Shown here: piece after piece, positions 16,733-45,236 of the stretch
Position numbering within the stretch: position 1 is the stretch's first letter
Layout: each line of letters starts with the position of its first letter
Source: Escherichia coli
GTDB lineage: Bacteria > Pseudomonadota > Gammaproteobacteria > Enterobacterales > Enterobacteriaceae
DNA: 64,000 nt
Assembly: GCF_050920415.1 (NCBI RefSeq)
Contig: NZ_CP169309.1
Strand: one strand, 5' to 3'
Program-made: the position numbers and the translations under genes
The notes under the pieces: model-generated
The model's input: the letters and a program-made list of their open reading frames with translations, nothing else
What the model was told of the DNA's origin: nothing
Databases searched by the model: none

Positions 16733-17467
16733 GTGGGTAATAATTTAATGCAGACGGATCTTTCCGTCTGGGGTATGTATCAGCACGCCGATATTGTCGT
16801 TAAGTGCGTGATGATTGGGCTTATTTTGGCCTCCGTAGTCACCTGGGCAATCTTCTTCAGTAAGAGCGTTGAGTTCTTCAATCAGAAGCGTCGCCTGAAA
16901 CGCGAACAGCAACTGCTGGCCCAAGCGCGTTCCTTGAACCAGGCCAACGATATCGCCGCTGATTTTGGTAGCAAAAGCTTAAGCCTGCATTTGCTCAATG
17001 AAGCGCAGGATGAGCTGGAACTGTCAGAAGGCAGCGACGATAACGAAGGTATTAAAGAACGTACCAGCTTCCGTCTGGAGCGTCGGGTCGCCGCCGTGGG
17101 GCGTCAAATGGGCCGCGGTAACGGCTACCTTGCAACCATCGGCGCGATTTCGCCGTTTGTGGGCCTCTTTGGTACGGTCTGGGGCATCATGAACAGCTTT
17201 ATCGGTATTGCGCAAACGCAGACCACTAATCTGGCTGTCGTTGCGCCGGGTATCGCAGAAGCTCTGTTAGCAACGGCAATCGGCCTCGTGGCAGCGATTC
17301 CGGCGGTCGTTATCTATAACGTATTTGCACGTCAGATTGGCGGCTTTAAAGCGATGCTGGGTGATGTCGCAGCGCAGGTATTATTGCTGCAAAGTCGTGA
17401 CCTGGATCTGGAAGCCAGCGCCGCTGCGCATCCGGTTCGTGTCGCCCAAAAATTACGCGCAGGATAA
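16733..17467 (+). CDS. exbB: TonB-system energizer ExbB
   Basis: 244-aa ORF (GTG start); matches ExbB. Confidence 0.93.
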   Translation: MGNNLMQTDLSVWGMYQHADIVVKCVMIGLILASVVTWAIFFSKSVEFFNQKRRLKREQQLLAQARSLNQANDIAADFGSKSLSLHLLNEAQDELELSEGSDDNEGIKERTSFRLERRVAAVGRQMGRGNGYLATIGAISPFVGLFGTVWGIMNSFIGIAQTQTTNLAVVAPGIAEALLATAIGLVAAIPAVVIYNVFARQIGGFKAMLGDVAAQVLLLQSRDLDLEASAAAHPVRVAQKLRAG

Positions 17468-18059: not shown

Positions 18060-18942
18060 AGCCTAAATGTTCGCCGCCGCACACGCCGTGTACTTCTGCA
18101 GTGACATAGCTCGACTCCTGACTTGCCAGATAAACATACACTGGGGCCAGCTCCGCCGGTTGTCCTGCACGTTTCATTGGTGTTTGCTGACCAAACTGCG
18201 GGATCTTATCCTGCGTCTGTCCACCGGAAATTTGCAGTGCTGTCCAGATCGGGCCTGGCGCAACAATATTCACCCGAATACCTTTCTCCGCGACCTGTTT
18301 TGCCAGGCCTCGGCTGTAGTTCAGAATCGCCGCCTTCGTAGCCGCATAGTCCAGTAAATGCGGGCTTGGCTGGTATGCCTGGATTGACGAAGTGGTGATG
18401 ATACTGGCACCTTTCGGTAGCAGGGGGATCGCTTCCTGGGTTAGCCAGAACAGCGCGAAAACGTTAATGGCAAAGGTCTTTTGAAACTGTTCGCTGGTGA
18501 GGTCTGCAATATCAGGAATGGCAACCTGTTTCCCGGCGACCAGCGCCATAATATCCAGCCCGCCTAACGCCTTGTGCGCTTCGTGAACCAGCGAACGGGC
18601 GAATTTCTCATCGCTTAAATCGCCTGGCAGCAGGACGGCTTTGCGTCCACATTCTTCAATGATCTTTTTCACATCCTGAGCGTCTTCTTCTTCCACGGGA
18701 AGATAACTGATCGCTACGTCAGCGCCTTCACGCGCGTAAGCGATGGCGGCAGCACGACCGATTCCGGAATCGCCCCCTGTCACCAGTGCCTTACGATCTT
18801 TCAGGCGACCGCTACCAACATAGGTTTTCTCGCCGCAATCCGGCACTGGTGTCATCTTCGCCTGGATGCCTGGCGTCGGTTGTTTCTGTTTGGGATATTC
18901 ACCAGTGTAATACTGCGTGGTCGGGTCTTTTAAATGAGACAT
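18058..18942 (-). CDS. yghA: Short-chain dehydrogenase/reductase YghA
   Basis: 294-aa ORF; SDR glycine-rich NAD-binding motif (TGGDSGIG); synteny. Confidence 0.9.
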
Positions 18943-19051
18943 CGCTTTTCTCCCTTCAGGTTCAACGTCCTTTAAGGGTAGACGCTCTCGATGCGTTGAT
19001 AAGGGAACCAGGAAAATCCCTAAACCTCAGAATTATGCGACAAAGGTTTAA

Positions 19052-33783: not shown

Positions 33784-34476
33784 CTAGTGATAACCACACG
33801 CGGTCATAAAATCCGTAATCGCTTTTTCTGCATCAACCAGCACCTTTTCCAGTGGCTGATTGGCGTCGATATCAACCAGTTGTGCACCACCAAAGGTTAA
33901 CTGTGGCGTTATGGCAATCTTTCTCGCCAGCGATTCCCGTTTATGGTCGGGTTTACGCGCGCAGGCAACTTCAAGGTCAACATTGAGTTTGATAACCAGA
34001 TCAGGCTTATGGCTCGCCATCCAGTGAAATGCTTTACGTTCCTGGCTTGCCAGCCATGAGACAAACCGGCCGCCTTCAACGTTAGGTGGGAACACCGTAC
34101 CATCGTAAGCGCCAGGAATTTGGTCCTGAGGATAACGATCGGTTAAGACAATCAGCCCGCGACGACGACAGGCGAGCATATGACGAAAGCGTAACAGTCG
34201 GCGGGCGACGAAAGCGGTGATCACCAGGGCCGGAACCGGACCCGGCAATTTTTTTGCCGTTTTCACTTCATTTTTTTCAATAGTCTTGTGCAGAGACTTT
34301 CCCATCAACGGTAATTTTGTCACTGCACGACCGACATTTCCGGCCTGTTTTCCTAAATGAACTCTTTCGGCAGCACCATATTTTTCGACAACGGTAATAA
34401 GATGTTCACACACCGTTGACTTGCCTGAACCATCGCTACCAATAACGGCAATTAATGGAGGTGTTATTGACTGCAT
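33784..34476 (-). CDS. yghT: P-loop kinase-like protein (Walker [14 protein letters not shown] motif; dTMP-kinase-like fold inferred)
   Basis: 230-aa ORF; paralogous to the next two genes. Confidence 0.85.
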
Positions 34477-34649
34477 GAATATATCCTTAAATTTAAATAT
34501 CCATCCAAAATATTTATTTGGTTAATATGTTTTTATGAAAGCGTAATTCAGGTCAATGTCACAATTAACCATTGTCACAATAAGGTTGAACGGATATTCT
34601 GAGCACGGACCACGTAATATTCAATACATTATTTGCTGCCGGGTTTTTC

Positions 34650-35363
34650 GTGAATCAACGTAATATGTCAATAATTAATTCCACGCCAGTGCGTGTTATT
34701 GCCATTGTAGGATGTGATGGTTCAGGTAAATCGACCCTCACGGCAAGCCTGGTAAATGAACTGGCAGCAACAATGCCAACAGAACACATTTATCTCGGGC
34801 AATCGTCCGGGCGAATTGGCGAATGGATTTCACAGCTCCCTGTTATTGGCGCACCTTTTGGGCGTTATCTGCGAAGTAAAGCGGCACATGTGCACGAAAA
34901 GCCCTCCACACCGCCTGGCAATATTACTGCGCTGGTTATCTATCTGCTTTCCTGCTGGCGGGCGTATAAGTTTCGCAAAATGTTGTGTAAAAGCCAGCAA
35001 GGCTATCTGCTCATCACCGACCGCTACCCGCAGGTTGAAGTGCCGGGTTTTCGCTTTGATGGCCCGCAACTGGCAAAAAACACGGGCGGTAACGGCTGGA
35101 TAAAAATGTTAAGACAGCGCGAGCTCAAACTTTACCAATGGATGGCGTCTTATTTGCCCGTATTGTTGATTCGTCTTGGCATTGATGAACAAACCGCGTT
35201 TGCGCGTAAACCTGACCACCAACTGGCGGCGTTACAGGAAAAAATCGCTGTTACGCCGCAACTGACATTCAATGGTGCAAAGATCCTTGAACTGGATGGT
35301 CGGCAACCCGCCGATGAAATTCTGCAAGCGTCACTACGCGCAATTCACGCCGCGCTTTCCTGA
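34650..35363 (+). CDS. yghS: P-loop kinase-like protein
   Basis: 237-aa ORF; GCDGSGKST and ITDRYP motifs. Confidence 0.85.
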   Translation: MNQRNMSIINSTPVRVIAIVGCDGSGKSTLTASLVNELAATMPTEHIYLGQSSGRIGEWISQLPVIGAPFGRYLRSKAAHVHEKPSTPPGNITALVIYLLSCWRAYKFRKMLCKSQQGYLLITDRYPQVEVPGFRFDGPQLAKNTGGNGWIKMLRQRELKLYQWMASYLPVLLIRLGIDEQTAFARKPDHQLAALQEKIAVTPQLTFNGAKILELDGRQPADEILQASLRAIHAALS

Positions 35364-35393
35364 TCACCAAATGGATAGGGGATGATTTAACGA

Positions 35394-36152
35394 ATGGATG
35401 CACTACAAACACAAACTGTTAATAGTACAACCGCGCCGCAGCCCAACTACATTCCGGGGCTGATTGCGGTGGTCGGGTGTGATGGCACCGGTAAATCCAC
35501 ACTGACCACTGACCTGGTGAAATCGCTGCAACAACACTGGCAAACCGAGCGCCGCTATCTGGGGCTGCTCTCCGGCGAAGACGGCGACAAAATCAAACGG
35601 TTGCCGCTCGTTGGCGTCTGGCTGGAACGGCGACTGGCGGCCAAATCCTCGAAAACCCAAAGCATGAAAACCAAATCTCCGGCGCTATGGGCGGCGGTGA
35701 TTATGTACTGCTTCTCGCTGCGAAGAATGGCGAATCTACGCAAGGTTCAGCGACTGGCGCAAAGTGGCGTTCTGGTGGTCAGCGATCGCTTCCCGCAGGC
35801 TGAAATTTCGGGCTTTTATTATGACGGACCGGGGATTGGCATCGAGCGTGCGACCGGGAAAATCAGCATGTTTCTGGCCCAGCGCGAACGGCGTTTATAC
35901 CAAAAAATGGCGCAATACCGTCCTGAATTAATTATTCGTTTGGGGATTGATATTGATACTGCCATCTCCCGCAAGCCTGACCATGACTATGCCGAGCTGC
36001 AGGACAAAATCGGTGTCATGTCGACGATTGGCTATAACGGCACAAAAATTCTTGAGATTGATTCCAGAGCGCCCTACAGCGAAGTGCTGGAACAGGCACA
36101 GAAGGCGGTTTCTCTGGTTGCAATCGTTTCTGACCGCCGAAGTTTAACTTAA
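35394..36152 (+). CDS. yghR: P-loop kinase-like protein
   Basis: 252-aa ORF; GCDGTGKST and VSDRFP motifs. Confidence 0.85.
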   Translation: MDALQTQTVNSTTAPQPNYIPGLIAVVGCDGTGKSTLTTDLVKSLQQHWQTERRYLGLLSGEDGDKIKRLPLVGVWLERRLAAKSSKTQSMKTKSPALWAAVIMYCFSLRRMANLRKVQRLAQSGVLVVSDRFPQAEISGFYYDGPGIGIERATGKISMFLAQRERRLYQKMAQYRPELIIRLGIDIDTAISRKPDHDYAELQDKIGVMSTIGYNGTKILEIDSRAPYSEVLEQAQKAVSLVAIVSDRRSLT

Positions 36153-36197: not shown

Positions 36198-37547
36198 TTG
36201 GCGGGGTTTAACATCAAACATTGGTTTGCAGATGGCGCGTTTCGCACCATTATTCGCAATAGCGCCTGGTTAGGCTCCAGTAATGTCGTGAGCGCTTTGC
36301 TGGGTCTGTTGGCGCTCTCGTGTGCCGGTAAAGGGATGACGCCCGCCATGTTTGGCGTACTGGTGATTGTGCAATCGTACGCCAAGTCGATCAGCGATTT
36401 TATTAAGTTTCAGACATGGCAGCTGGTGGTTCAGTACGGAACGCCAGCCTTGACCAATAATAATCCGCAGCAATTTCGCAATGTCGTCTCATTTTCCTTC
36501 TCGTTGGATATCGTCAGCGGCGCGGTGGCGATTGTCGGCGGCATTGCCTTACTCCCTTTTCTTTCCCATTCATTAGGTCTGGATGACCAAAGCTTTTGGC
36601 TGGCAGCGCTGTATTGCACGCTCATTCCTTCAATGGCTTCCTCCACACCGACCGGCATTCTGCGTGCAGTAGATCGCTTCGATTTGATTGCTGTACAGCA
36701 GGCGACGAAACCTTTTCTGCGCGCAGCGGGGAGCGTCGTAGCCTGGTATTTTGATTTTGGTTTTGCGGGTTTTGTTATTGCCTGGTACGCATCGAATCTG
36801 GTTGGCGGCACCATGTACTGGTGGTTTGCCGCGCGCGAATTACGCCGCAGAAATATCCATAACGCCTTCAAATTGAATCTGTTTGAGTCTGCCCGACACA
36901 TTAAAGGCGCGTGGAGTTTTGTCTGGTCAACCAACATTGCCCACTCCATCTGGTCGGCACGTAACTCGTGCAGCACAGTGTTGGTGGGGATCGTGTTAGG
37001 ACCCGCTGCCGCCGGGTTATTTAAAATCGCCATGACATTCTTCGATGCCGCCGGAACGCCAGCGGGTTTACTGGGCAAAAGTTTTTACCCAGAGGTGATG
37101 CGTTTAGATCCGCGTACCACCAGACCGTGGTTGTTAGGCGTGAAGTCCGGTTTACTGGCGGGCGGAATCGGTATTCTGGTGGCGCTCGCGGTGTTGATCG
37201 TCGGCAAGCCGCTCATTTCGCTGGTGTTTGGCGTTAAGTATCTCGAAGCGTATGACCTGATTCAGGTGATGCTTGGCGCAATTGTGATTTCGATGCTGGG
37301 CTTCCCACAGGAGTCATTGCTATTGATGGCGGGAAAACAGCGCGCTTTTCTCGTGGCGCAAACCATCGCCTCAATCGGCTACATCGTATTGCTGTTCATG
37401 TTCTGTCATCTGTTTGGCGTGCTGGGGGCTGCATTTGCTTACTTCGGTGGGCAATGTCTGGATGTGGTGCTCTCGTTAATTCCAACCTTAAAGGCATTTT
37501 TTCAGCGCCATTCCTTGCTTTATAACGCAGCCGGAGAGAAATCCTGA
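36198..37547 (+). CDS. yghQ: Polytopic inner-membrane protein, MOP/Wzx-like flippase family (putative lipid or polysaccharide flippase)
   Basis: 449-aa hydrophobic ORF; ORF-track start is TTG, so true start uncertain; synteny with yghRST. Confidence 0.75.
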   Translation: MAGFNIKHWFADGAFRTIIRNSAWLGSSNVVSALLGLLALSCAGKGMTPAMFGVLVIVQSYAKSISDFIKFQTWQLVVQYGTPALTNNNPQQFRNVVSFSFSLDIVSGAVAIVGGIALLPFLSHSLGLDDQSFWLAALYCTLIPSMASSTPTGILRAVDRFDLIAVQQATKPFLRAAGSVVAWYFDFGFAGFVIAWYASNLVGGTMYWWFAARELRRRNIHNAFKLNLFESARHIKGAWSFVWSTNIAHSIWSARNSCSTVLVGIVLGPAAAGLFKIAMTFFDAAGTPAGLLGKSFYPEVMRLDPRTTRPWLLGVKSGLLAGGIGILVALAVLIVGKPLISLVFGVKYLEAYDLIQVMLGAIVISMLGFPQESLLLMAGKQRAFLVAQTIASIGYIVLLFMFCHLFGVLGAAFAYFGGQCLDVVLSLIPTLKAFFQRHSLLYNAAGEKS

Positions 37548-38371
37548 TGATGAGAAAATATTTCCCGCTTGAGGCGAGCGAGCGTCTATTTATTGCAGTT
37601 GAAGAAGATGATGTCGTTGATGCGCAGGTCAGTTTACCGCCGACTATCGCAACAGGTTGTACCACCGAAATCATTCATGATAATTACGCGTTATGCCTGC
37701 AATTCTGGCTGAATGGCGTTGATCGTCAGGAATTACTGCGTTTAATCCACAAACAAGCCAAAGGCGAGGGGCTTACGGCTGACGAGCGTAAACAGTTTAA
37801 ATATATGCGGGCGCGTTATAAGCATCTACGTTTTGCCCAACGGTTGTATTTAAAAAAGCATCAGGCCGGATTTTTATTTGGCAAAACGACCGTTTTTCTT
37901 GGACGTTTTCAGGACGGCTTTCGTAACGGTAAGAAAAATATTGTGTCGTTTTACGGCAACCTTTTACGGATTTATTTAAGCTCTCCGGTCTAGTTGTTGG
38001 TGAACTATTCATTACGCCATAGCCAGTTAGAAAGCGTAAGCGGTTTTATTGCCTATCGGCAAAAGCAAATGCACCTCCTGAAAGAGATTATTGCCAAACC
38101 ACGGCTAACTGGCAGGGAATTTCATGATGTACGAAAAATAATCAGCCAGCAGGTTTCTTATTACGACACCCTAAGATCGCTTGATCCTGAAAATAAAGAA
38201 GCGTTACAGATTTCCCGCTTCCTCGCCGCCATTAATGGCCTGATGGGGGATAAACACGACGACATGGTGGCGGATGATATGGAAAACCGCCAGTCGTATG
38301 ATGCACCGATGGCGCTGGATAGCGATATTCGTCAGCGCTTAGAACTGCTGATTTCGCGTTTTCCGCTATAA
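37547..38371 (+). pseudogene. Hypothetical protein reading frame (275 codons) interrupted by a single in-frame TAG at 37991-37993; either a nonsense pseudogene or two adjacent ORFs
   Basis: ORF-track ORFs 37547-37993 and 37994-38371 are in the same frame and contiguous; start ATG overlaps the yghQ stop (TGATG). Confidence 0.4.
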
Positions 38372-38379
38372 CCGGAGCA

Positions 38380-38943
38380 ATGATGTCATCTCGTTTGATT
38401 ATTGCGCTGATTATCATGCTCTTAGCCCCGGGTGTGCAGGCGCACAATTTCGTCACTGGTAAAACGGTTACCCCTGTTTATATCCAGGAAGGCGGCGAGC
38501 TGCTTCTGAATAGCGACGACGAAATTCACTACCAAAAGTGGAACAGCACACAGCTGGCGGGAAAAGTCCGCATTATTCAGTATATCGCCGGGCGTAAGTC
38601 GGCGAAGAAAAAGAACTCACTGTTAATTAAAGCGGTTGAAGCGGCAAACTTTCCGCAGGATCGTTTTCAGCCCACCACCATTGTGAACACCGATGATGCC
38701 ATCTTTGGTACTGGCTATTTTGTCGTTGGCAAAATCGAAAAAAATAAACGCCGCTATCCGTGGGCGCAATTCGTTATTGACGGCAATGGACAGGGACGCG
38801 TTGTCTGGCGGTTGCCGGAGCAGAGTTCAACCATTCTGGTGCTGAATAAAGCCGGGCAAATTCAGTGGGCAAAGGACGGCAGCCTGACGCCGGAAGAGGT
38901 AGATCATGTCATTGCGCTGGCGCAGAAGCTGATCAATGAATAA
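38380..38943 (+). CDS. YtfJ-family periplasmic protein (signal peptide)
   Basis: 187-aa ORF; N-terminal signal MMSSRLIIALIIMLLAPGVQA; resembles E. coli YtfJ as I recall it. Confidence 0.6.
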   Translation: MMSSRLIIALIIMLLAPGVQAHNFVTGKTVTPVYIQEGGELLLNSDDEIHYQKWNSTQLAGKVRIIQYIAGRKSAKKKNSLLIKAVEAANFPQDRFQPTTIVNTDDAIFGTGYFVVGKIEKNKRRYPWAQFVIDGNGQGRVVWRLPEQSSTILVLNKAGQIQWAKDGSLTPEEVDHVIALAQKLINE

Positions 38944-38973: not shown

Positions 38974-40044
38974 ATGAAGCTGGTTGAACACTACATCATG
39001 CGTGGTACGCGCCGTCTGGTGCTGATTATCGTCGGTTTTCTGATCTTTATTTTCGCCAGCTACTCCGCACAGCGTTATCTGACCGAAGCGGCAAATGGGA
39101 CATTAGCTCTTGATGTTGTGCTGGATATTGTTTTCTACAAGGTGCTGATTGCACTGGAGATGTTGTTACCTGTTGGACTGTATGTGTCAGTTGGCGTGAC
39201 GCTAGGGCAGATGTATACCGACTCGGAAATTACCGCTATTTCTGCGGCGGGGGGGAGTCCGGGACGCTTGTACAAAGCCGTTCTTTATCTGGCGATACCG
39301 CTAAGTATTTTTGTCACCCTTCTGTCGATGTATGGTCGTCCGTGGGCTTATGCGCAGATTTATCAACTGGAGCAACAGTCGCAGTCGGAGCTGGATGTTC
39401 GCCAGTTGCGGGCAAAGAAATTTAACACTAACGATAACGGACGAATGATCCTTTCGCAGACGGTTGATCAGGATAATAATCGCCTGACTGACGTGCTGAT
39501 TTATACTTCTACTGCCAATCGAACCCGTATTTTCCGCGCCCGTTCGGTTGATGTAGTTGACCCATCACCCGAGAAACCGACCGTTATGTTGCATAACGGG
39601 ACCGCCTATCTTCTCGATCATCAGGGGCGTGACGACAACGAACAGATCTACCGTAATCTGCAATTGCATCTGAATCCGCTGGATCAAAGCCCTAACGTCA
39701 AACGCAAAGCAAAATCGGTCACGGAGCTGGCGCGCTCCGCCTTTCCTGCCGATCATGCCGAACTGCAATGGCGACAAAGCCGTGGCCTGACAGCATTGTT
39801 GATGGCGCTGCTGGCCATTTCATTAAGTCGGGTAAAACCGCGGCAAGGGCGATTTTCAACGTTATTGCCACTGACGTTGCTGTTTGTTGCCATTTTTTAT
39901 GGCGGCGACGTCTGCCGTACGCTGGTGGCTAACGGCGCGATTCCCCTCATTCCTGGTTTGTGGTTAGTACCCGGACTCATGCTAATGGGCCTGCTGATGC
40001 TGGTCGCACGCGACTTCTCTTTGCTGCAGAAATTTTCCCGATGA
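38974..40044 (+). CDS. LptF-like permease (YjgP/YjgQ family) paralog
   Basis: 356-aa ORF; N-terminal TM then large periplasmic segment then C-terminal TMs, the LptF/LptG architecture. Confidence 0.7.
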   Translation: MKLVEHYIMRGTRRLVLIIVGFLIFIFASYSAQRYLTEAANGTLALDVVLDIVFYKVLIALEMLLPVGLYVSVGVTLGQMYTDSEITAISAAGGSPGRLYKAVLYLAIPLSIFVTLLSMYGRPWAYAQIYQLEQQSQSELDVRQLRAKKFNTNDNGRMILSQTVDQDNNRLTDVLIYTSTANRTRIFRARSVDVVDPSPEKPTVMLHNGTAYLLDHQGRDDNEQIYRNLQLHLNPLDQSPNVKRKAKSVTELARSAFPADHAELQWRQSRGLTALLMALLAISLSRVKPRQGRFSTLLPLTLLFVAIFYGGDVCRTLVANGAIPLIPGLWLVPGLMLMGLLMLVARDFSLLQKFSR

Positions 40045-41120
40045 ATGTTTTCAGTCGCTATTTAATTCGTCATCTCTTTCTCGGTTTTGCCGCCGCCGCA
40101 GGGCTATTGCTGCCGCTCTTTACCACCTTCAACCTGATTAACGAACTGGATGATGTCAGCCCGGGTGGTTATCGCTGGACTCAGGCGGTGCTGGTGGTGC
40201 TGATGACCTTACCGCGCACACTGGTCGAACTTTCGCCGTTTATCGCCTTATTGGGAGGGATTGTCGGCCTGGGGCAGTTATCGAAAAACAGTGAGCTTAC
40301 CGCCATTCGCAGCACGGGGTTTTCTATCTTCCGTATTGCACTGGTGGCGCTGGTTGCCGGGATATTGTGGACTGTTTCATTAGGCACGATAGATGAGTGG
40401 GTGGCGTCGCCATTGCAGCAACAGGCGCTGCAAATCAAATCGACTGCCACTGCGTTGGGGGAGGACGATGACATTACCGGCAATATGCTGTGGGCCAGGC
40501 GTGGTAATGAATTTGTGACGGTGAAATCGCTGAACGAGCAGGGCCAGCCGGTGGGCGTGGAGATATTTCATTACCGCGACGATCTCTCGCTCGAATCCTA
40601 CATTTATGCACGCAGTGCCACCATTGAAGACGACAAAACGTGGATCCTGCATGGTGTGAATCATAAAAAATGGCTGAATGGCAAAGAAACGCTGGAAACA
40701 TCTGATAATCTTGCCTGGCAATCGGCCTTCACCAGTATGAATCTTGAAGAGTTATCGATGCCGGGAAATACTTTTTCTGTCCGTCAACTTAATCATTACA
40801 TCCATTATTTGCAGGAAACCGGGCAACCCAGCAGCGAATACCGCTTTGCACTGTGGGAAAAACTGGGACAACCCATCTTGACCCTTGCGATGATTTTGCT
40901 GGCTGTGCCGTTTACCTTTAGTGCCCCGCGTTCGCCTGGGATGGGTAGCCGTCTCGCTGTAGGCGTCATCGTGGGGTTACTCACCTGGAGCAGCTATCAA
41001 ATCATGGTCAATCTGGGATTGCTATTTGCGTTGAGCGCACCTGTTACCGCGCTCGGTTTACCGATAGCGTTTATGCTGGTGGCGTTGAGCCTGGTGTATT
41101 GGTATGACAGTCAACATTAA
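40041..41120 (+). CDS. LptG-like permease (YjgP/YjgQ family) paralog
   Basis: Start at ATGA overlap with upstream gene (MNVFSRYLIRHL); same architecture; 359 aa. Confidence 0.7.
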   Translation: MNVFSRYLIRHLFLGFAAAAGLLLPLFTTFNLINELDDVSPGGYRWTQAVLVVLMTLPRTLVELSPFIALLGGIVGLGQLSKNSELTAIRSTGFSIFRIALVALVAGILWTVSLGTIDEWVASPLQQQALQIKSTATALGEDDDITGNMLWARRGNEFVTVKSLNEQGQPVGVEIFHYRDDLSLESYIYARSATIEDDKTWILHGVNHKKWLNGKETLETSDNLAWQSAFTSMNLEELSMPGNTFSVRQLNHYIHYLQETGQPSSEYRFALWEKLGQPILTLAMILLAVPFTFSAPRSPGMGSRLAVGVIVGLLTWSSYQIMVNLGLLFALSAPVTALGLPIAFMLVALSLVYWYDSQH

Positions 41121-41154
41121 ACCCGCCGTGGCGCAGCACCACAGCGGGCTCACA

Positions 41155-42327
41155 TTACTGCTTCAGAGTAGCAAATGCCTGAATGATGGCATCGATTTGC
41201 TCACGAGTGTGGGCAGCGTTTACGCTACAGCGCAGCAGCGTGATGCCTGCAGGCGCGGCAGGTGGCAGGATAAGATTCACATAAACGCCCAGCGAAATAA
41301 GCTCGCGCCAGATGCGTAAACCTTCCTCTTTCGAACCGATTATTACTGGCACTACCGGGCTAATATGTGAACTTAACTCGTAACCCAGTTTTTGCAGACC
41401 GTCATACAGATGGCTGGCGTTATCCATCAGCTTTTGCCGCAACTCTGGTTGTGAGGCAATGGTTCTTAACGACGAGCGCACGGTCGCAATGCAGGACGGA
41501 GAAGGAGAGGCGGTAAAAATATACGGGCGGCTGCCGTAGCGCAGCACTTCCATCGCTTCCGAACCGACAGCAAAACCGCCAATCGAGGCCAGACTTTTAC
41601 TGAAAGTACCAACGATAATATCCACATCATCTTCAACGCCAACGGCTTCAGCCAGTCCGCGCCCCGTTGCGCCTAACACGCCAAACGAATGCGCTTCATC
41701 GACAATCAAATAACCACCGAGACGACGTTTGATATCAACAATTTCCGCCAGCGGCGCAACGTCACCGAGCATACTGTAGATGCCTTCAACGATGATAATC
41801 GCCTCTTTTGCCCGTTCACCGAGGCGAACCATGCGCCGTTCCAGATCTTTAGCATCGTTATGGCGGAAACGAATAATTTCCGCTCCACCGAGAGAACAGG
41901 CGTCATAAATACTGGCGTGGCTATCGGCATCCAGTAACACCACGGCGTTATGGTCGGCAAGTGCGCTGATGACACCTAAATTAGCGGTATAACCGGTTGA
42001 AAAAACGATAGCGGTAGGGCGATTGAAAAACTCGGCAATCTCTTTCTCTAACGCCAGATGTGGCGCATAGCTGCCATTAGCCATACGAGAACCGGTAGTG
42101 CCGGTGCCTTGTGCCGCTAATGCTGCCTGACCTTCGGTGATGGCATCATGATTGAAAGTTAAACCGAGATAATTATTAGTCCCGGCCAGAATCACTTTTT
42201 TATTGCCGATACGGCCTTCAGTGGCGGAGTACACTTCATCAATACAGGTACCAAACGGCGTTAATCCGTTGTCACTAAATTGCAGTCGCTCGCCAGCAAG
42301 GCGCGCATATTTATCGTATAGCCCCAT
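41155..42327 (-). CDS. PLP-dependent alpha-oxoamine synthase (serine palmitoyltransferase / BioF / Kbl family)
   Basis: 390-aa ORF; conserved VDEAHSFGVLG and PLP-lysine GTFSKSL motifs. Confidence 0.8.
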   Translation of the reverse strand: MGLYDKYARLAGERLQFSDNGLTPFGTCIDEVYSATEGRIGNKKVILAGTNNYLGLTFNHDAITEGQAALAAQGTGTTGSRMANGSYAPHLALEKEIAEFFNRPTAIVFSTGYTANLGVISALADHNAVVLLDADSHASIYDACSLGGAEIIRFRHNDAKDLERRMVRLGERAKEAIIIVEGIYSMLGDVAPLAEIVDIKRRLGGYLIVDEAHSFGVLGATGRGLAEAVGVEDDVDIIVGTFSKSLASIGGFAVGSEAMEVLRYGSRPYIFTASPSPSCIATVRSSLRTIASQPELRQKLMDNASHLYDGLQKLGYELSSHISPVVPVIIGSKEEGLRIWRELISLGVYVNLILPPAAPAGITLLRCSVNAAHTREQIDAIIQAFATLKQ

Positions 42328-42606: not shown

Positions 42607-43521
42607 TCAAAATAGCCCGCTGCGTAATGCGTGTTCCAGGCTAATCCCGGGAAACCAATTAATATCTTCAGAAATACGGTTATTACTTGCTGACCAGTCG
42701 GCGTGGGTTAATTCACGGATTTTCGAGCGGGTCAGCATAGGTTCTTTACCTGCCAGGCGACTCAACGCGGTACTGATATCCGCAAGGCAGGTGAGTACCG
42801 ACAGAGGAATACCAACCATTCGAACGGAACCGCAACGGGCGTCGGCGGCAAGTTGCTGTACGCGTTGCCAGTCATAGCCGCCGGCGACGCCATCGCATAA
42901 TTCATAGGTTTGCGTTTGTACAGTTTCGGCGCTTAACCACTGCCCCACGGCTTGCGCGAAATCGGTGACGTGCAGGAAAGAGAGCTGTGTATCTGGCGCA
43001 CCAAGTCGTGGCAGCAGGCCGCGCAGCATCCAGCCAAACAGCGGTTTTAACTCTTTATCGCCGGGACCATACACGGCTGTCGGGCGAAAAATGCCCAGCG
43101 TAATTTCGTCAGCCATTGCGGTCAGTCGTTGTTCGGCGACGTGTTTGGAATTTGCGTACCAGGAGAGTTCGGGATGGCGCGCCGCCAGCGAAGAGATAAA
43201 CAGAAAACGTTGGCAAAAGCCGCTCTCTTTTGCCGCTTGCATCAGGCGCAGGCTGCCGTCAACGTTACAGCGGGTAAAAATCTCTTCTTTGTGTCCGCGC
43301 ACTTGCCCGGCGCAATGGACCACCGCGCTGGCTCCGGCAACCAGTTCGCTAAGCGAATGTGTATCTTCCAGCGAACCGCGCACCCAGATGAGATTATCAT
43401 TGACGTGAGCGCGGGCAGTACGCGTCAATGCGCGAACGTGAAAGCCGCGGGCGAGCAGGTTATCGATAATATATTTACCGATAAACCCGGTAGCGCCCGT
43501 CACCGCGACAGTTTGATTCAT
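42607..43521 (-). CDS. NAD(P)-dependent epimerase/dehydratase-family (extended SDR) oxidoreductase; candidate 3-keto reductase
   Basis: 304-aa ORF; N-terminal Rossmann motif VTGATGFIG. Confidence 0.75.
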   Translation of the reverse strand: MNQTVAVTGATGFIGKYIIDNLLARGFHVRALTRTARAHVNDNLIWVRGSLEDTHSLSELVAGASAVVHCAGQVRGHKEEIFTRCNVDGSLRLMQAAKESGFCQRFLFISSLAARHPELSWYANSKHVAEQRLTAMADEITLGIFRPTAVYGPGDKELKPLFGWMLRGLLPRLGAPDTQLSFLHVTDFAQAVGQWLSAETVQTQTYELCDGVAGGYDWQRVQQLAADARCGSVRMVGIPLSVLTCLADISTALSRLAGKEPMLTRSKIRELTHADWSASNNRISEDINWFPGISLEHALRSGLF

Positions 43522-45236
43522 GCCATGGATTCCTGCACATGAAGGCTTGCAGCATAACGTTTTTTCGCTTCCGCACGGGCAGGCTTGCCGGAGGACGTTC
43601 GGGGAATACTGTGGGGCGGCAACAGATCGATAGCCGCTGTTACGCCAAATTCGCTTTGGATCCGTGCTGCCAGTGCGTGGATAAGCTGCCCACGACGTTC
43701 TTCGTCGCTGATCCTACACTGGATCTGCAAAATGATTTTTTCCTGGGCGGTAACAAAAGCAATCGCATCGCCAGAATGAATTTCCGGTTCCTGTTCCGCA
43801 ATATATTCAATATCCTGCGGCCAGATATTACGGCCACGAATAATAATCAGATCTTTAATGCGCCCGGTGACATACAGATAACCATCCAGCAGATAACCGA
43901 GGTCGCCGGTATCTAACCAGCCCGTCGCGGCAATCTCGTCTTGCGAAACCTGGTCGCCAAAGTAACCGCTCATCAGGCTGGGGCCGGAGATGCAAATATG
44001 GCCTACCACACGTTCCGCGACCGGCATACCTGCTTCATTGCGGATTTCAATGCCATGTTCCGGCAACGCTTTACCGCAGTTGACGAAAGTCGATACGGCG
44101 CGTGTTTCAGCACCCGGCGCGACGGCTTTGCCCTGATATTCAAGGATGTCGCGATCCACTTCGTTAACCACAACCCCGGAGGCTTCATCAGAGAAGCTGA
44201 CAGCCAGCGCATTTTCTGCCAGTCCGTAGCACGGCATGAAAGTTTTATCGTCAAAGTTAACCTGACGGAAACATTCAGCAAATTGGTGGAGTTGTTCTGC
44301 GGAGATGGGTTCTGCGCCAATACCAGCGACGCGCCAGCACGAGAGATCCAGTTCAGCGAGATCTTTTTCATTCACGCGGCGCTGACACAATTCATAGCCA
44401 AACGGCGGCGCGACGGAAACTGTGCCACGATTTTTACTGATCAATTTAAGCCATTGCAGCGGACGCATGGCAAAATCCTGAGTGCGCAAATAATCTACTG
44501 AGAGCTGCGTGGCGACGGGGGTCAGGAGAAAGCCGACCAGTCCCATATCATGGTAGAAAGGCAGCCAGGAGACGCAGCGGTCGCCAGGGCGTAATTTAAT
44601 GCCATCGTGGCTTATAGCACGTAGATTAGCCATCACTTCGCGATGGGTGATAATGACGCCACGGGGAAAACGGGTGCTGCCGGAGGTGTACTGGAGGTAG
44701 GCGATATCGTTCGGAACTGGACGCTGGAGTACAACATCGGCTTCCGGTAATGCCTTAAACCAGGCGTGGCTTAAAACATGTAATTCGGGGTTGTTATGCG
44801 TAGCAGCATTGACCAGTGGCAACCACTCATCACCAGTGATAATGGCTGCGGGCTGGCAACTAGCCAGTAAACCTTGCAGTTTAGCGCTCCAGGAATCCCG
44901 CTGACCGACGCCCATTGGAATCGCTAACGGGACGGCGACTAAGCCGGCATACTGGCAGGCAAAAAAAGCCTCTACAAACCCGCTACTCGTTTCGGCAATC
45001 AGCGCCACGCGATCGCCTTTTTTCAGATTTAGTGATAACAACCGCTTCGCACCAGCTTCGGCACACGCTTTTAACGTCTGATATTCCAGTTGATCTTCAA
45101 GTTGGCAACGTCTGTCATAAAAATTCATTCCGGCGCTACTCAGAGCGGCGTAGTCCAAAGCATCAACCAGCGTTGGAAAATCGGCATAGCGCATAGGTAG
45201 GGAATGCGTAAAGATGTTATTAGACATATACACCAC
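43518..45236 (-). CDS. Fatty acyl-AMP ligase / acyl-ACP synthetase (AMP-binding superfamily)
   Basis: 572-aa ORF; AMP-binding signature YTSGSTRFPRGV; overlaps downstream reductase gene by 4 nt. Confidence 0.8.
   Translation of the reverse strand: MVYMSNNIFTHSLPMRYADFPTLVDALDYAALSSAGMNFYDRRCQLEDQLEYQTLKACAEAGAKRLLSLNLKKGDRVALIAETSSGFVEAFFACQYAGLVAVPLAIPMGVGQRDSWSAKLQGLLASCQPAAIITGDEWLPLVNAATHNNPELHVLSHAWFKALPEADVVLQRPVPNDIAYLQYTSGSTRFPRGVIITHREVMANLRAISHDGIKLRPGDRCVSWLPFYHDMGLVGFLLTPVATQLSVDYLRTQDFAMRPLQWLKLISKNRGTVSVAPPFGYELCQRRVNEKDLAELDLSCWRVAGIGAEPISAEQLHQFAECFRQVNFDDKTFMPCYGLAENALAVSFSDEASGVVVNEVDRDILEYQGKAVAPGAETRAVSTFVNCGKALPEHGIEIRNEAGMPVAERVVGHICISGPSLMSGYFGDQVSQDEIAATGWLDTGDLGYLLDGYLYVTGRIKDLIIIRGRNIWPQDIEYIAEQEPEIHSGDAIAFVTAQEKIILQIQCRISDEERRGQLIHALAARIQSEFGVTAAIDLLPPHSIPRTSSGKPARAEAKKRYAASLHVQESMA

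What the first reader, a model, noticed from the sequence alone, without database searches (positions are those of the whole stretch)
38974..41120. Second LptF/LptG-like permease pair embedded in the lipid locus
Two adjacent, 4-nt-overlapping ORFs of about 356 and 359 aa have the YjgP/YjgQ (LptF/LptG) architecture; the essential LPS-transport lptFG pair lies elsewhere on the chromosome. A dedicated paralogous pair next to lipid-synthesis genes suggests extraction of a specialised lipid from the inner membrane. No ABC ATPase (no LSGGQ signature) is encoded in the locus, so it would have to borrow LptB or another ATPase.
Basis: partly seen in the sequence, partly recalled or inferred. Interest (0 to 1): 0.75.

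Follow-up and report, generated by a model that had tools for sequence, protein, structure and literature searches.

The report
Second LptFG pair for sphingolipid export
Most E. coli strains (not K-12) carry a second, diverged copy of the two membrane proteins that normally pull LPS out of the inner membrane; it sits inside a ceramide-synthesis gene cluster and most likely exports that lipid, a system already shown experimentally in Caulobacter but untested in E. coli.

Summary
Two ORFs (38974-40044, 356 aa; 40041-41120, 359 aa; ATGA overlap) are full-length LptF- and LptG-family proteins, only 27-29% identical to the canonical E. coli pair, which lies next to pepA. They sit in the yghT-yghO region beside spt, a dedicated ACP, a reductase, an acyl-ACP synthetase and yghO (ceramide N-acyltransferase homologue). 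K-12 lost the block to an IS5-associated deletion; 76% of complete E. coli genomes keep it.

Relatives of this LptF in 80 species-level loci always have an adjacent LptG, and all 51 loci with full flanks contain ceramide genes. The LptB-coupling helix motif is essentially invariant. The LPS-phosphate-binding lysines of LptG TM1 are replaced by Asn/Asp. No locus encodes its own LptB, LptC or LptA. dN/dS is 0.05-0.09.

Caulobacter LptF2/LptG2 were named in 2024, and in April 2026 were shown to be required when anionic sphingolipid is made and to bind LptB; that preprint already draws the E. coli UTI89 locus. The E. coli version differs in lacking LptC2 and having other head-group genes. Its lipid product is unknown.

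The parts
38974..40044 (+). lptF2 (LptF-family permease paralog, 356 aa)
   Evidence: TIGR04407 323 bits, PF03739 2e-55. 29% identity to canonical E. coli LptF over 270 aa. AF2 model pLDDT 82.9 with 3 TM helices, a beta domain at 150-232, then 3 TM helices; best PDB hits are LptF chains. dN/dS 0.085-0.093.
40041..41120 (+). lptG2 (LptG-family permease paralog, 359 aa), ATGA overlap with lptF2
   Evidence: TIGR04408 304 bits, PF03739 3e-68. 27% identity to canonical LptG over 350 aa. Coupling-helix Glu retained. Canonical K34/K40/K41 are N31/D37/D38 here. dN/dS 0.048-0.065.
41122..41148 (.). GC-rich inverted repeat (CCCGCCGTGG-7 nt-CCACAGCGGG) between convergent lptG2 and spt; possible bidirectional terminator
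   Evidence: Read directly from the sequence. Only a weak minus-strand terminator-like hit, and the scan as a whole is at chance level, so this is not validated.
41155..42327 (-). spt, serine palmitoyltransferase
   Evidence: NF047599 599.6 bits, cutoff 500. The BL21 orthologue makes 3-oxo-sphinganine when expressed with AcpR/AasR (PMC9386255).
42327..42575 (-). acpR, dedicated acyl carrier protein (82 aa)
   Evidence: Annotated ACP. PP-binding domain in the Hafnia orthologue. AcpR of E. coli BL21 carries 4'-phosphopantetheine (PMC9386255).
42607..43521 (-). SDR/epimerase-family reductase (epi / CerR-like)
   Evidence: NAD-dependent epimerase/dehydratase family. Equated with ECD_02852, a putative keto-sphinganine/ceramide reductase.
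43518..45227 (-). aasR, acyl-AcpR synthetase (fatty acyl-AMP ligase)
   Evidence: NF006624 871 bits. AasR of BL21 acylates AcpR (PMC9386255).
45599..46741 (+). yghO, homologue of the ceramide N-acyltransferase (aca / bCerS)
   Evidence: No Pfam or NCBIfam hit. Equated with aca, ECD_02850, in PMC9386255. Conserved about 2 kb upstream of lptF2 in most non-enterobacterial loci.
38383..38943 (+). ytfJ-like periplasmic protein (186 aa, signal peptide), 30 nt upstream of lptF2
   Evidence: TIGR01626 209 bits. AF2 pLDDT 81.4, thioredoxin-like fold. No Cys in the sequence. Co-occurs with lptF2G2 only in Enterobacterales. Role unknown; not LptC-like.
37547..38371 (+). 274-aa protein of unknown function, interrupted in this strain by an amber codon at 37991-37993
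   Evidence: G-to-A at 37992 turns Trp149 into TAG relative to NZ_CP169399.1. No Pfam or NCBIfam match. The allele is in 0 of 5426 complete genomes.
36198..37547 (+). yghQ, MOP-family flippase-like membrane protein (449 aa), candidate inner-membrane flippase
   Evidence: Weak MOP flippase hit, NF007773 1.4e-8, below cutoff. Polysacc_synt Pfam hit in the Hafnia orthologue. Truncated by IS5 in K-12.
33784..36152 (.). yghT (-), yghS (+), yghR (+): three paralogous P-loop, kinase-like proteins, candidate head-group enzymes
   Evidence: Walker A GxDGxGKS only, no ABC signature. dTMP-kinase similarity far below cutoffs. Co-occur with the cluster in Enterobacterales and at 37-43% identity in some Pseudomonas loci.

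Best explanation
lptF2-lptG2 encode the two transmembrane subunits of a second LptB2FG-type (type VI ABC) lipid extractor dedicated to a ceramide-based lipid made by the adjacent spt-acpR-epi-aasR / yghO genes. Proposed sequence of events: ceramide (or oxidised ceramide) is built at the cytoplasmic face, flipped (YghQ is the candidate in Enterobacteria), and given a head group by yghR/S/T, the 274-aa protein and/or YtfJ'. [quoted passage not shown] It is passed through the LptF2 beta-jellyroll to the shared LptC/LptA/LptDE bridge for delivery to the outer membrane. Shown here: family, fold, paralogy, synteny, conserved coupling motif, altered cavity, purifying selection, and no dedicated ATPase, LptC or LptA. 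Shown elsewhere (Caulobacter): the genetic requirement, the F2-G2 complex and LptB binding. Inferred for E. coli: that the lipid is made, the substrate identity, the use of LptB, and the downstream route.
For: Family and fold. Ancient paralogy: 27-29% identity to the canonical pair. All 79 LptF relatives are closer to the paralog than to canonical LptF, and the canonical proteins fall outside the paralog groups in an NJ tree. Conserved synteny with ceramide genes in Enterobacterales, Pseudomonas/Azotobacter, Nitrosomonas/Nitrosospira, Salinisphaera, Thiotrichales, Desulfobacteraceae, Nitrospirales and Acidobacteriota: 68/80 loci, and 51/51 with full flanks. The head-group genes vary between lineages while lptF2G2 and the ceramide core stay constant. 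Coupling helix: LptF E84/G92 and LptG G96 are invariant, and LptG E88 is kept in 79 of 80; these residues mediate LptB binding (PMC5082905). Cavity: LptG K34 becomes N/D, K40 D/E, K41 D, R133 hydrophobic and I66 acidic, while LptF R33, K317 and LptG K62, R136 stay basic. K34E is lethal in the LPS transporter (PMC6744409), so the paralog is not tuned for lipid A. No LptB, LptC or LptA gene in the window or in any of the 80 loci. dN/dS of 0.05-0.09 is as low as for spt and yghO. The pair and the spt block have the same prevalence, 4131 vs 4163 of 5426 genomes. Caulobacter: lptF2/G2/C2 can be deleted only in delta-spt or delta-cpgB backgrounds; F2 and G2 co-purify and both pull down LptB. E. coli BL21 Spt/AcpR/AasR are enzymatically active.
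Against: I found no report that any E. coli makes a sphingolipid natively, so the cluster may be silent under laboratory conditions. The E. coli locus has no LptC2, unlike Caulobacter. I could not retrieve the Caulobacter sequences, so direct orthology to CCNA_01214/01213 is untested. Residue mapping rests on a single canonical sequence per protein: the TM1 region of LptG is ungapped, but the LptF N-terminus is less certain. In this strain the gene two positions upstream carries an amber codon that could be polar on lptF2G2. LptB binding in E. coli is inference only.
Confidence: 0.72

Rival explanations
1. A redundant or specialised LPS exporter: the second pair transports LPS or a modified lipid A variant, as the PGAP name 'LPS export ABC transporter permease' implies.
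For: Both proteins exceed the curated cut-offs of the LptF/LptG equivalog HMMs and are annotated as such in RefSeq. Several basic cavity residues are retained: LptF R33, K317; LptG K62, R136.
Against: The LptG TM1 lysines that bind lipid A phosphates and the inner core are replaced by Asn/Asp throughout the family, and K34E is lethal in the true LPS transporter. The pair travels with ceramide genes in 51/51 fully flanked loci, not with LPS genes. It is only 27-29% identical to the canonical pair. It is dispensable, being absent from K-12 and 24% of genomes, whereas the canonical pair is in 5425/5426.
Confidence: 0.05
2. An evolutionary relic: the cluster, including lptF2G2, is intact but silent or non-functional in E. 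coli, or at least in this strain.
For: I found no report of native E. coli sphingolipids. The locus is repeatedly lost or damaged: the IS5 deletion in K-12, truncated and fused LptF2 variants in Shigella and other lineages, and the amber codon in the upstream 274-aa gene in this window.
Against: dN/dS of 0.05-0.09 for lptF2/lptG2 against other Escherichia species, and similarly low values for spt and yghO. Near-full-length matches in 4105 of 5426 genomes. The whole 13-gene order is conserved in Hafnia, Pseudocitrobacter, Shimwellia and Pluralibacter. BL21 Spt/AcpR/AasR are active enzymes.
Confidence: 0.13
3. The pair does extract the locus's lipid but uses another energy source or route: an ATPase other than LptB, or delivery to a carrier other than the LptC/A/DE bridge.
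For: No partner is encoded locally. Three P-loop proteins (YghT/S/R) and a periplasmic thioredoxin-fold protein (YtfJ') are co-conserved in Enterobacterales. In Caulobacter the authors could not detect LptC2 binding, and the downstream route is unknown.
Against: YghT/S/R have a kinase-like P-loop without an ABC signature or Q-loop context, and they are absent from most non-enterobacterial loci that still have lptF2G2. The coupling-helix motif that docks LptB is essentially invariant. LptB binding was shown directly in Caulobacter. The LptF2 beta domain is a jellyroll that matches LptA.
Confidence: 0.1

Closest known systems
Caulobacter crescentus LptF2 (CCNA_01214/CC_1156-55) / LptG2 (CCNA_01213), with LptC2 (CCNA_01226): sphingolipid inner-membrane transporter. 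Named in Olea-Ozuna et al. 2024, PMC11324152; characterised in Uchendu, Isom & Klein 2026, bioRxiv 10.64898/2026.04.12.717747.
   Same: A second LptF/LptG pair beside a canonical one, encoded inside the spt/acpR/cerR/aasR/bCerS locus, with no second lptB. The preprint's Fig. 2B already shows the E. coli UTI89 locus with homologous genes coloured.
   Different: The E. coli locus has no LptC2. Its head-group genes are yghQ/R/S/T, a 274-aa protein and YtfJ', rather than cpgABC, so there is no DAG-kinase-fold ceramide kinase. Nothing has been tested in E. coli, and the lipid product is unknown. Sequence-level orthology to the Caulobacter proteins was not tested here.
Canonical LptB2FGC lipopolysaccharide extractor of E. 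coli (LptF b4261 / LptG b4262; PDB 6MHU, 6MIT, 6S8H)
   Same: Same Pfam family, the same 6-TM plus beta-jellyroll fold, an adjacent overlapping F-G gene pair, and a conserved coupling-helix Glu/Gly.
   Different: 27-29% identity. The cationic LPS-binding residues on LptG TM1 are charge-inverted, and R133 and I66 are changed. It is an accessory locus present in 76% of genomes, against 5425 of 5426 for the canonical pair. Its neighbours are ceramide genes rather than pepA.
spt-linked lptF2G2 loci of Pseudomonas/Azotobacter, Nitrosomonas and other Proteobacteria
   Same: The same LptF2/LptG2 clade (31-61% identity), next to the same five ceramide genes.
   Different: Those loci carry an MsbA-like fused ABC exporter after spt, a nucleotidyltransferase-like gene between yghO and lptF2, and DAG-kinase-like (CpgB-like) genes downstream. 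They lack yghQ, the 274-aa protein and YtfJ'.

Membership tests
LptF/LptG permease family (Pfam PF03739; TMDs of type VI ABC transporters) | Full-length profile match above family thresholds | tested here: met
   PF03739 2e-55 (residues 7-345) and 3e-68 (6-353). TIGR04407 323 bits and TIGR04408 304 bits, both above cut-offs.
LptF/LptG permease family (Pfam PF03739; TMDs of type VI ABC transporters) | Six TM helices with a periplasmic beta-jellyroll between TM3 and TM4 | tested here: met
   LptF2 AF2 model: helices 3-40, 46-82, 97-136; strands 150-232; helices 258-284, 297-319, 328-348. The top 9 PDB hits are LptF chains, and the beta domain alone hits LptA. LptG2 was not modelled but aligns end to end with LptG with 3 gaps.
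LptF/LptG permease family (Pfam PF03739; TMDs of type VI ABC transporters) | Coupling helix between TM2 and TM3 with the conserved Glu and Gly (LptF E84/G92, LptG E88/G96) | tested here: met
   E and G are present in E. coli LptF2 and LptG2. LptF E84/G92 are kept in 79 of 79 relatives; LptG E88 in 79 of 80 and G96 in 80 of 80. Motif definition from PMC5082905.
Canonical LPS exporter LptF/LptG (functional equivalog) | Cationic cavity residues that bind lipid A phosphates and inner core (LptG K34, K40, K41, R133, R136, K62; LptF R33, K317) | tested here: not met
   LptG2 has N, D, D, L at K34, K40, K41, R133. The family never has Lys at the K34 position. R136, K62, LptF R33 and K317 stay basic. 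Residue list from PMC6744409.
Canonical LPS exporter LptF/LptG (functional equivalog) | Near-universal presence and the conserved pepA-lptF-lptG context in E. coli | tested here: not met
   The canonical pair is beside pepA and in 5425/5426 genomes. This pair is in the yghT-yghO locus, in 4131/5426 genomes, and deleted in K-12.
Canonical LPS exporter LptF/LptG (functional equivalog) | Transports LPS and is essential for viability | not testable with these tools
   Requires complementation or depletion experiments. K-12 lives without this pair, so it is not essential.
Sphingolipid-type LptF2/LptG2 (Caulobacter paradigm) | A second LptF/LptG pair encoded within or next to the spt-acpR-cerR-aasR-bCerS genes | tested here: met
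   lptG2 ends 34 nt from spt. All five ceramide genes lie within 5.6 kb. The linkage is conserved in 51/51 fully flanked loci.
Sphingolipid-type LptF2/LptG2 (Caulobacter paradigm) | No dedicated LptB; the housekeeping LptB is used | tested here: inconclusive
   Absence of any LptB-like gene in the window and in 80 loci is shown, and the docking motif is conserved. Physical use of LptB in E. coli cannot be tested here; it was shown only in Caulobacter.
Sphingolipid-type LptF2/LptG2 (Caulobacter paradigm) | A dedicated LptC2 in the locus | tested here: not met
   No locus protein matches LptC: NCBIfam, Pfam on the 274-aa protein, tblastn with E. coli LptC/LptA at E > 0.1. YtfJ' is thioredoxin-like, not a jellyroll. 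The 274-aa protein was not modelled.
Sphingolipid-type LptF2/LptG2 (Caulobacter paradigm) | Deletion is lethal only when anionic sphingolipid is made; F2-G2-LptB form a complex | not testable with these tools
   Genetic and biochemical criteria from the preprint.
Sphingolipid-type LptF2/LptG2 (Caulobacter paradigm) | Sequence orthology to CCNA_01214 / CCNA_01213 | not tested
   The Caulobacter sequences were not obtainable. The genome scan returned no alpha-proteobacteria among its best 80, and cluster names were uninformative. Only the preprint's Fig. 2B legend asserts homology.

The most novel reading that the evidence does not exclude
Most natural E. coli, and many other Enterobacterales, make a still-undescribed outer-membrane ceramide lipid whose head group is built by YghQ/R/S/T, the 274-aa protein and YtfJ', not the Caulobacter cpgABC chemistry. 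It is exported by an LptB2-F2G2 machine that needs no dedicated LptC. The charge-inverted LptG2 TM1 (K34/K40/K41 to N/D/D) would be the selectivity filter that admits this lipid and rejects LPS, so two lipid cargoes share one ATPase and one periplasmic bridge.
Probability: 0.35. Interest if true: 0.65.

Novelty: new member of a known kind. Interest (0 to 1): 0.4.

Why it matters
E. coli is the textbook organism for LPS transport and is usually described as lacking sphingolipids, largely because K-12 has deleted this locus. If the pair is active, most wild and pathogenic E. coli would run two lipid-export streams through one ATPase and possibly one trans-envelope bridge. That bears on outer-membrane composition, polymyxin and detergent tolerance, host recognition of bacterial sphingolipids, and how Lpt-targeting antibiotics such as zosurabalpin-class compounds and thanatin behave. 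The conserved coupling helix combined with the charge-inverted cavity gives a natural pair of transporters for dissecting substrate selectivity. There is also a practical point: RefSeq names both pairs 'LPS export permease', which hides the distinction.

Tried and rejected
1. Genomic context from metagenomic representatives (P0127, P0129, P0135): the contigs were only 1.7-5.5 kb, too short to be informative.

It was redone with 8 sequences.

3. Looking up organism names for distant representatives, to find Caulobacter or Sphingomonas orthologues, gave almost no names. Orthology to the Caulobacter proteins therefore stays untested.

4. Promoter and terminator scans of 33.5-47 kb were at chance level (15 vs 15.1 expected; 22 vs 16.6). 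They give no operon evidence beyond gene spacing.

5. YtfJ' as an LptC/LptA-like periplasmic acceptor: rejected. It has a thioredoxin-like fold and no cysteine.

6. YghT/S/R as the missing ABC ATPase: rejected. They have a kinase-type P-loop, no signature motif, and are absent from most non-enterobacterial lptF2G2 loci.

7. The ABC ATPase hits near spt in Pseudomonas-type loci as a dedicated LptB: rejected. They are 575-600-aa fused TMD-NBD exporters, about 30% identical to LptB.

8. The ISGGQ motif at 18061-19026 lies in yghA, an SDR reductase, and is a chance match.

9. The dN/dS for the 274-aa gene is unreliable because the in-frame stop broke my codon alignment.

10. The 274-aa protein and YghO have no Pfam or NCBIfam match.
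Full report
**Observation.** The window is E. coli chromosome. It differs by 3 SNPs in 42 kb from NZ_CP169399.1. Two ORFs sit at the stated coordinates:
- 38974-40044, 356 aa.
- 40041-41120, 359 aa from the ATG that homologues and PGAP use. A longer GTG reading is only mechanical.

They overlap by ATGA. ORF1 matches the LptF equivalog TIGR04407 (323 bits, cutoff 230) and ORF2 the LptG equivalog TIGR04408 (304 bits, cutoff 240). Both match PF03739 end to end. An AlphaFold model of ORF1 built on a 50-sequence alignment (pLDDT 82.9, pTM 0.70) has three TM helices, a beta-rich insert at 150-232 and three more helices. Its best PDB matches are all LptF chains of LptB2FG(C) (E 6e-18, TM 0.66-0.75), followed by LptG chains, and the beta domain alone finds LptA.

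**A paralog, not a copy.**
- The canonical lptF-lptG lie beside pepA and are in 5425 of 5426 complete E. coli genomes.
- The second pair is 29% (LptF, 270 aa) and 27% (LptG, 350 aa) identical to them.
- LptF2 scores higher against Pseudomonas and Vibrio LptF than against the enterobacterial protein.
- The pair is in 4131 of 5426 genomes, the same prevalence as the adjacent spt-aasR block (4163).
- In K-12 an IS5 replaces everything from the 3' end of yghQ to upstream of yghO. This explains why the locus is missing from the standard picture of E. coli.

**Context.** The locus, between pitB and glcC, reads:
- yghT (-)
- yghS, yghR, yghQ, a 274-aa unknown, a YtfJ-family protein, lptF2, lptG2 (+; gaps of -4 to 45 nt)
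- spt, an 82-aa ACP, an SDR reductase, a fatty acyl-AMP ligase (-)
- yghO (+)

Spt passes its curated cut-off (599.6 vs 500). The literature equates these genes with spt/acpR/epi(cerR)/aasR/aca(bCerS). It shows that the BL21(DE3) Spt, AcpR and AasR make 3-oxo-sphinganine when co-expressed (PMC9386255).

**Is the linkage meaningful?**
- A deep search found a graded series of relatives at 28-38% identity, all scoring above canonical LptFs.
- A scan of one genome per species returned 80 loci, each with an adjacent LptG-like gene. They come from Enterobacterales, Pseudomonas/Azotobacter, Nitrosomonas/Nitrosospira, Methylothermaceae, Salinisphaera, Thiotrichales, Desulfobacteraceae, Nitrospirales and Acidobacteriota.
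- Homologues of spt/acpR/epi/aasR/yghO occur in 68 of the 80 loci, and in 51 of the 51 loci that have at least 8 kb on both sides. Most of the 12 without them are cut short by a contig end.
- All 79 LptF relatives are closer to the E. coli paralog than to canonical LptF (margin at least 65 bits). In an NJ tree the canonical proteins fall outside the paralog groups. The caveats are one canonical sequence per protein and no bootstrap; LptG discriminates less well (72/80).
- The variable part is the head-group and flippase set. Enterobacterales have yghQ/R/S/T, the 274-aa protein and YtfJ'. The other lineages have an MsbA-like fused ABC exporter after spt, a nucleotidyltransferase-like gene before lptF2, and DAG-kinase-like genes after lptG2. 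The last resemble the Caulobacter ceramide kinase CpgB (PMC10331486).
- The constant partners of lptF2G2 are therefore the ceramide core genes.

**Functional residues.** Published positions were mapped onto the family.
- Coupling helix: LptF E84 and G92 and LptG G96 are invariant, and LptG E88 is kept in 79 of 80. These residues dock LptF/LptG onto LptB (PMC5082905).
- Cavity residues changed: in LptG, K34 becomes N/D (never K), K40 becomes D/E, K41 becomes D, D37 becomes N in Enterobacterales, R133 becomes hydrophobic and I66 becomes acidic.
- Cavity residues kept basic: LptF R33 and K317, LptG K62 and R136.
- K34E is lethal in the LPS transporter (PMC6744409). The paralog therefore keeps the motor interface but has a re-charged substrate entrance. 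This argues against a redundant LPS exporter.
- The TM1 mapping in LptG is ungapped and robust. The LptF N-terminal mapping is less certain.

**Partners.**
- No ORF in the 64-kb window has both a Walker A and an ABC signature.
- E. coli LptB finds only ~30%-identity generic ABC domains in the 80 loci. LptC and LptA find nothing.
- YghT/S/R are kinase-like P-loop proteins.
- YtfJ', directly upstream of lptF2, has a signal peptide and a cysteine-free thioredoxin-like fold. It is not a jellyroll.
- The 274-aa protein has no detectable family and no TM segment.

So the E. coli locus supplies neither an ATPase nor an LptC2.

**Selection and integrity.** Against other Escherichia species, dN/dS is 0.085-0.093 for lptF2 and 0.048-0.065 for lptG2. 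This is similar to spt and yghO and inconsistent with a decaying relic. In this particular strain, however, the 274-aa gene two positions upstream carries an amber codon (G-to-A at 37992). None of 5426 complete genomes has it. It may be a recent mutation or a sequencing error, and it could be polar.

**Comparison with what is known.**
- Olea-Ozuna et al. 2024 (PMC11324152) already named CC_1168/1156/1155 as LptC2/F2/G2, 'probably' for phosphosphingolipid transport.
- Uchendu, Isom & Klein (bioRxiv, April 2026) showed that Caulobacter lptF2, lptG2 and lptC2 can be deleted only when spt or cpgB is absent. They also showed that F2 and G2 co-purify, that both bind LptB, and that there is no second lptB. 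Their Fig. 2B draws the E. coli UTI89 locus with homologous genes coloured.
It is supported but not new.
- Specific to the E. coli/enterobacterial version: no LptC2, a different head-group and flippase gene set, and, as far as I could find, no evidence that the lipid is made natively.
- I did not see the family-wide charge inversion on LptG TM1 mentioned in the passages of the preprint I read.

**Verdict.** This is a real, well-conserved, selectively maintained second LptFG pair. It is most likely the membrane part of a ceramide-lipid extractor that shares LptB (confidence about 0.7). It is a new, uncharacterised member of a recently described kind. Interest is moderate: the concept is published, but E. 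coli as a sphingolipid producer, the missing LptC2 and the selectivity residues are open and directly testable.

Noticed in passing
window 37991-37993 (gene 37547-38371, +): An amber codon (G-to-A at 37992, Trp149 to stop) splits the 274-aa unknown protein two genes upstream of lptF2. The nearest genome has TGG, and none of 5426 complete E. coli genomes carries this allele. It is either a private mutation or a sequencing error, and may be polar on ytfJ'-lptF2-lptG2.
   Followed up: yes
L003 (NC_000913.3 3129043-3132408): In K-12 MG1655 an IS5 (IS5LO) sits between yghO and a truncated yghQ. It replaces the 274-aa gene, ytfJ', lptF2, lptG2, spt, acpR, epi and aasR. The laboratory reference strain therefore lacks the whole system.
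   Followed up: yes
L031, L045, L062, L063 (about 1.6-3.4 kb in each locus, minus strand); also L044, L064, L065: Non-enterobacterial lptF2G2 loci carry a different accessory set. A 575-600-aa MsbA-like fused ABC exporter lies directly after spt. A ~285-aa nucleotidyltransferase-like gene lies between yghO and lptF2. Downstream of lptG2 are ~400-aa, ~325-aa (DAG-kinase-like 'LNPxSG', CpgB-like) and ~321-aa genes. They have no yghQ, 274-aa gene or YtfJ'.
   Followed up: partly
L004 17854-18579 (Hafnia alvei): An Sfp-type phosphopantetheinyl transferase (4PPT_N + ACPS) lies next to yghO in Hafnia. It is a plausible dedicated activator of AcpR. E. coli has glcC at that position instead.
   Followed up: no
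proteins P0001, P0002, P0006 (553 aa); P0015-P0018 (450 aa); P0103, P0106 (238-243 aa): Database variants of LptF2 include in-frame YtfJ'-LptF2 fusions, consistent with loss of the ytfJ' stop (the 30-nt spacer is in frame). There are also PitB-LptF2 fusions (PF01384 + PF03739) that imply deletions of yghT through ytfJ', and truncated forms in Shigella boydii and a 471-member cluster. The locus is being eroded independently in several lineages.
   Followed up: no
window 38974-41120; RefSeq annotation in L001: PGAP names both the canonical and the second pair 'LPS export ABC transporter permease LptF/LptG', because the paralogs exceed the equivalog cut-offs of TIGR04407/TIGR04408. The cut-offs do not separate the sphingolipid-linked clade, so the functional name is probably over-specific in thousands of genomes.
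   Followed up: partly
window 33784-36152 (yghT, yghS, yghR): Three paralogous P-loop proteins (Walker A GxDGxGKS) score only 25-31 bits against dTMP-kinase models (cut-off 83), yet two are named 'dTMP kinase' in RefSeq. They co-occur with the ceramide cluster in Enterobacterales, and at 37-43% identity in some Pseudomonas loci. They are candidate head-group kinases.
   Followed up: partly
window 38383-38943: The YtfJ-family protein has a confident thioredoxin-like fold but no cysteine at all, so it cannot be a thiol-disulfide oxidoreductase. The residues at the usual CxxC position are an invariant AGR..AKK motif.
   Followed up: partly
L090 16733-17467 (window about 16733-17467): The gene labelled exbB carries the product name 'tol-pal system-associated acyl-CoA thioesterase' in this RefSeq record. 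This looks like a gene/product annotation mismatch.
   Followed up: no
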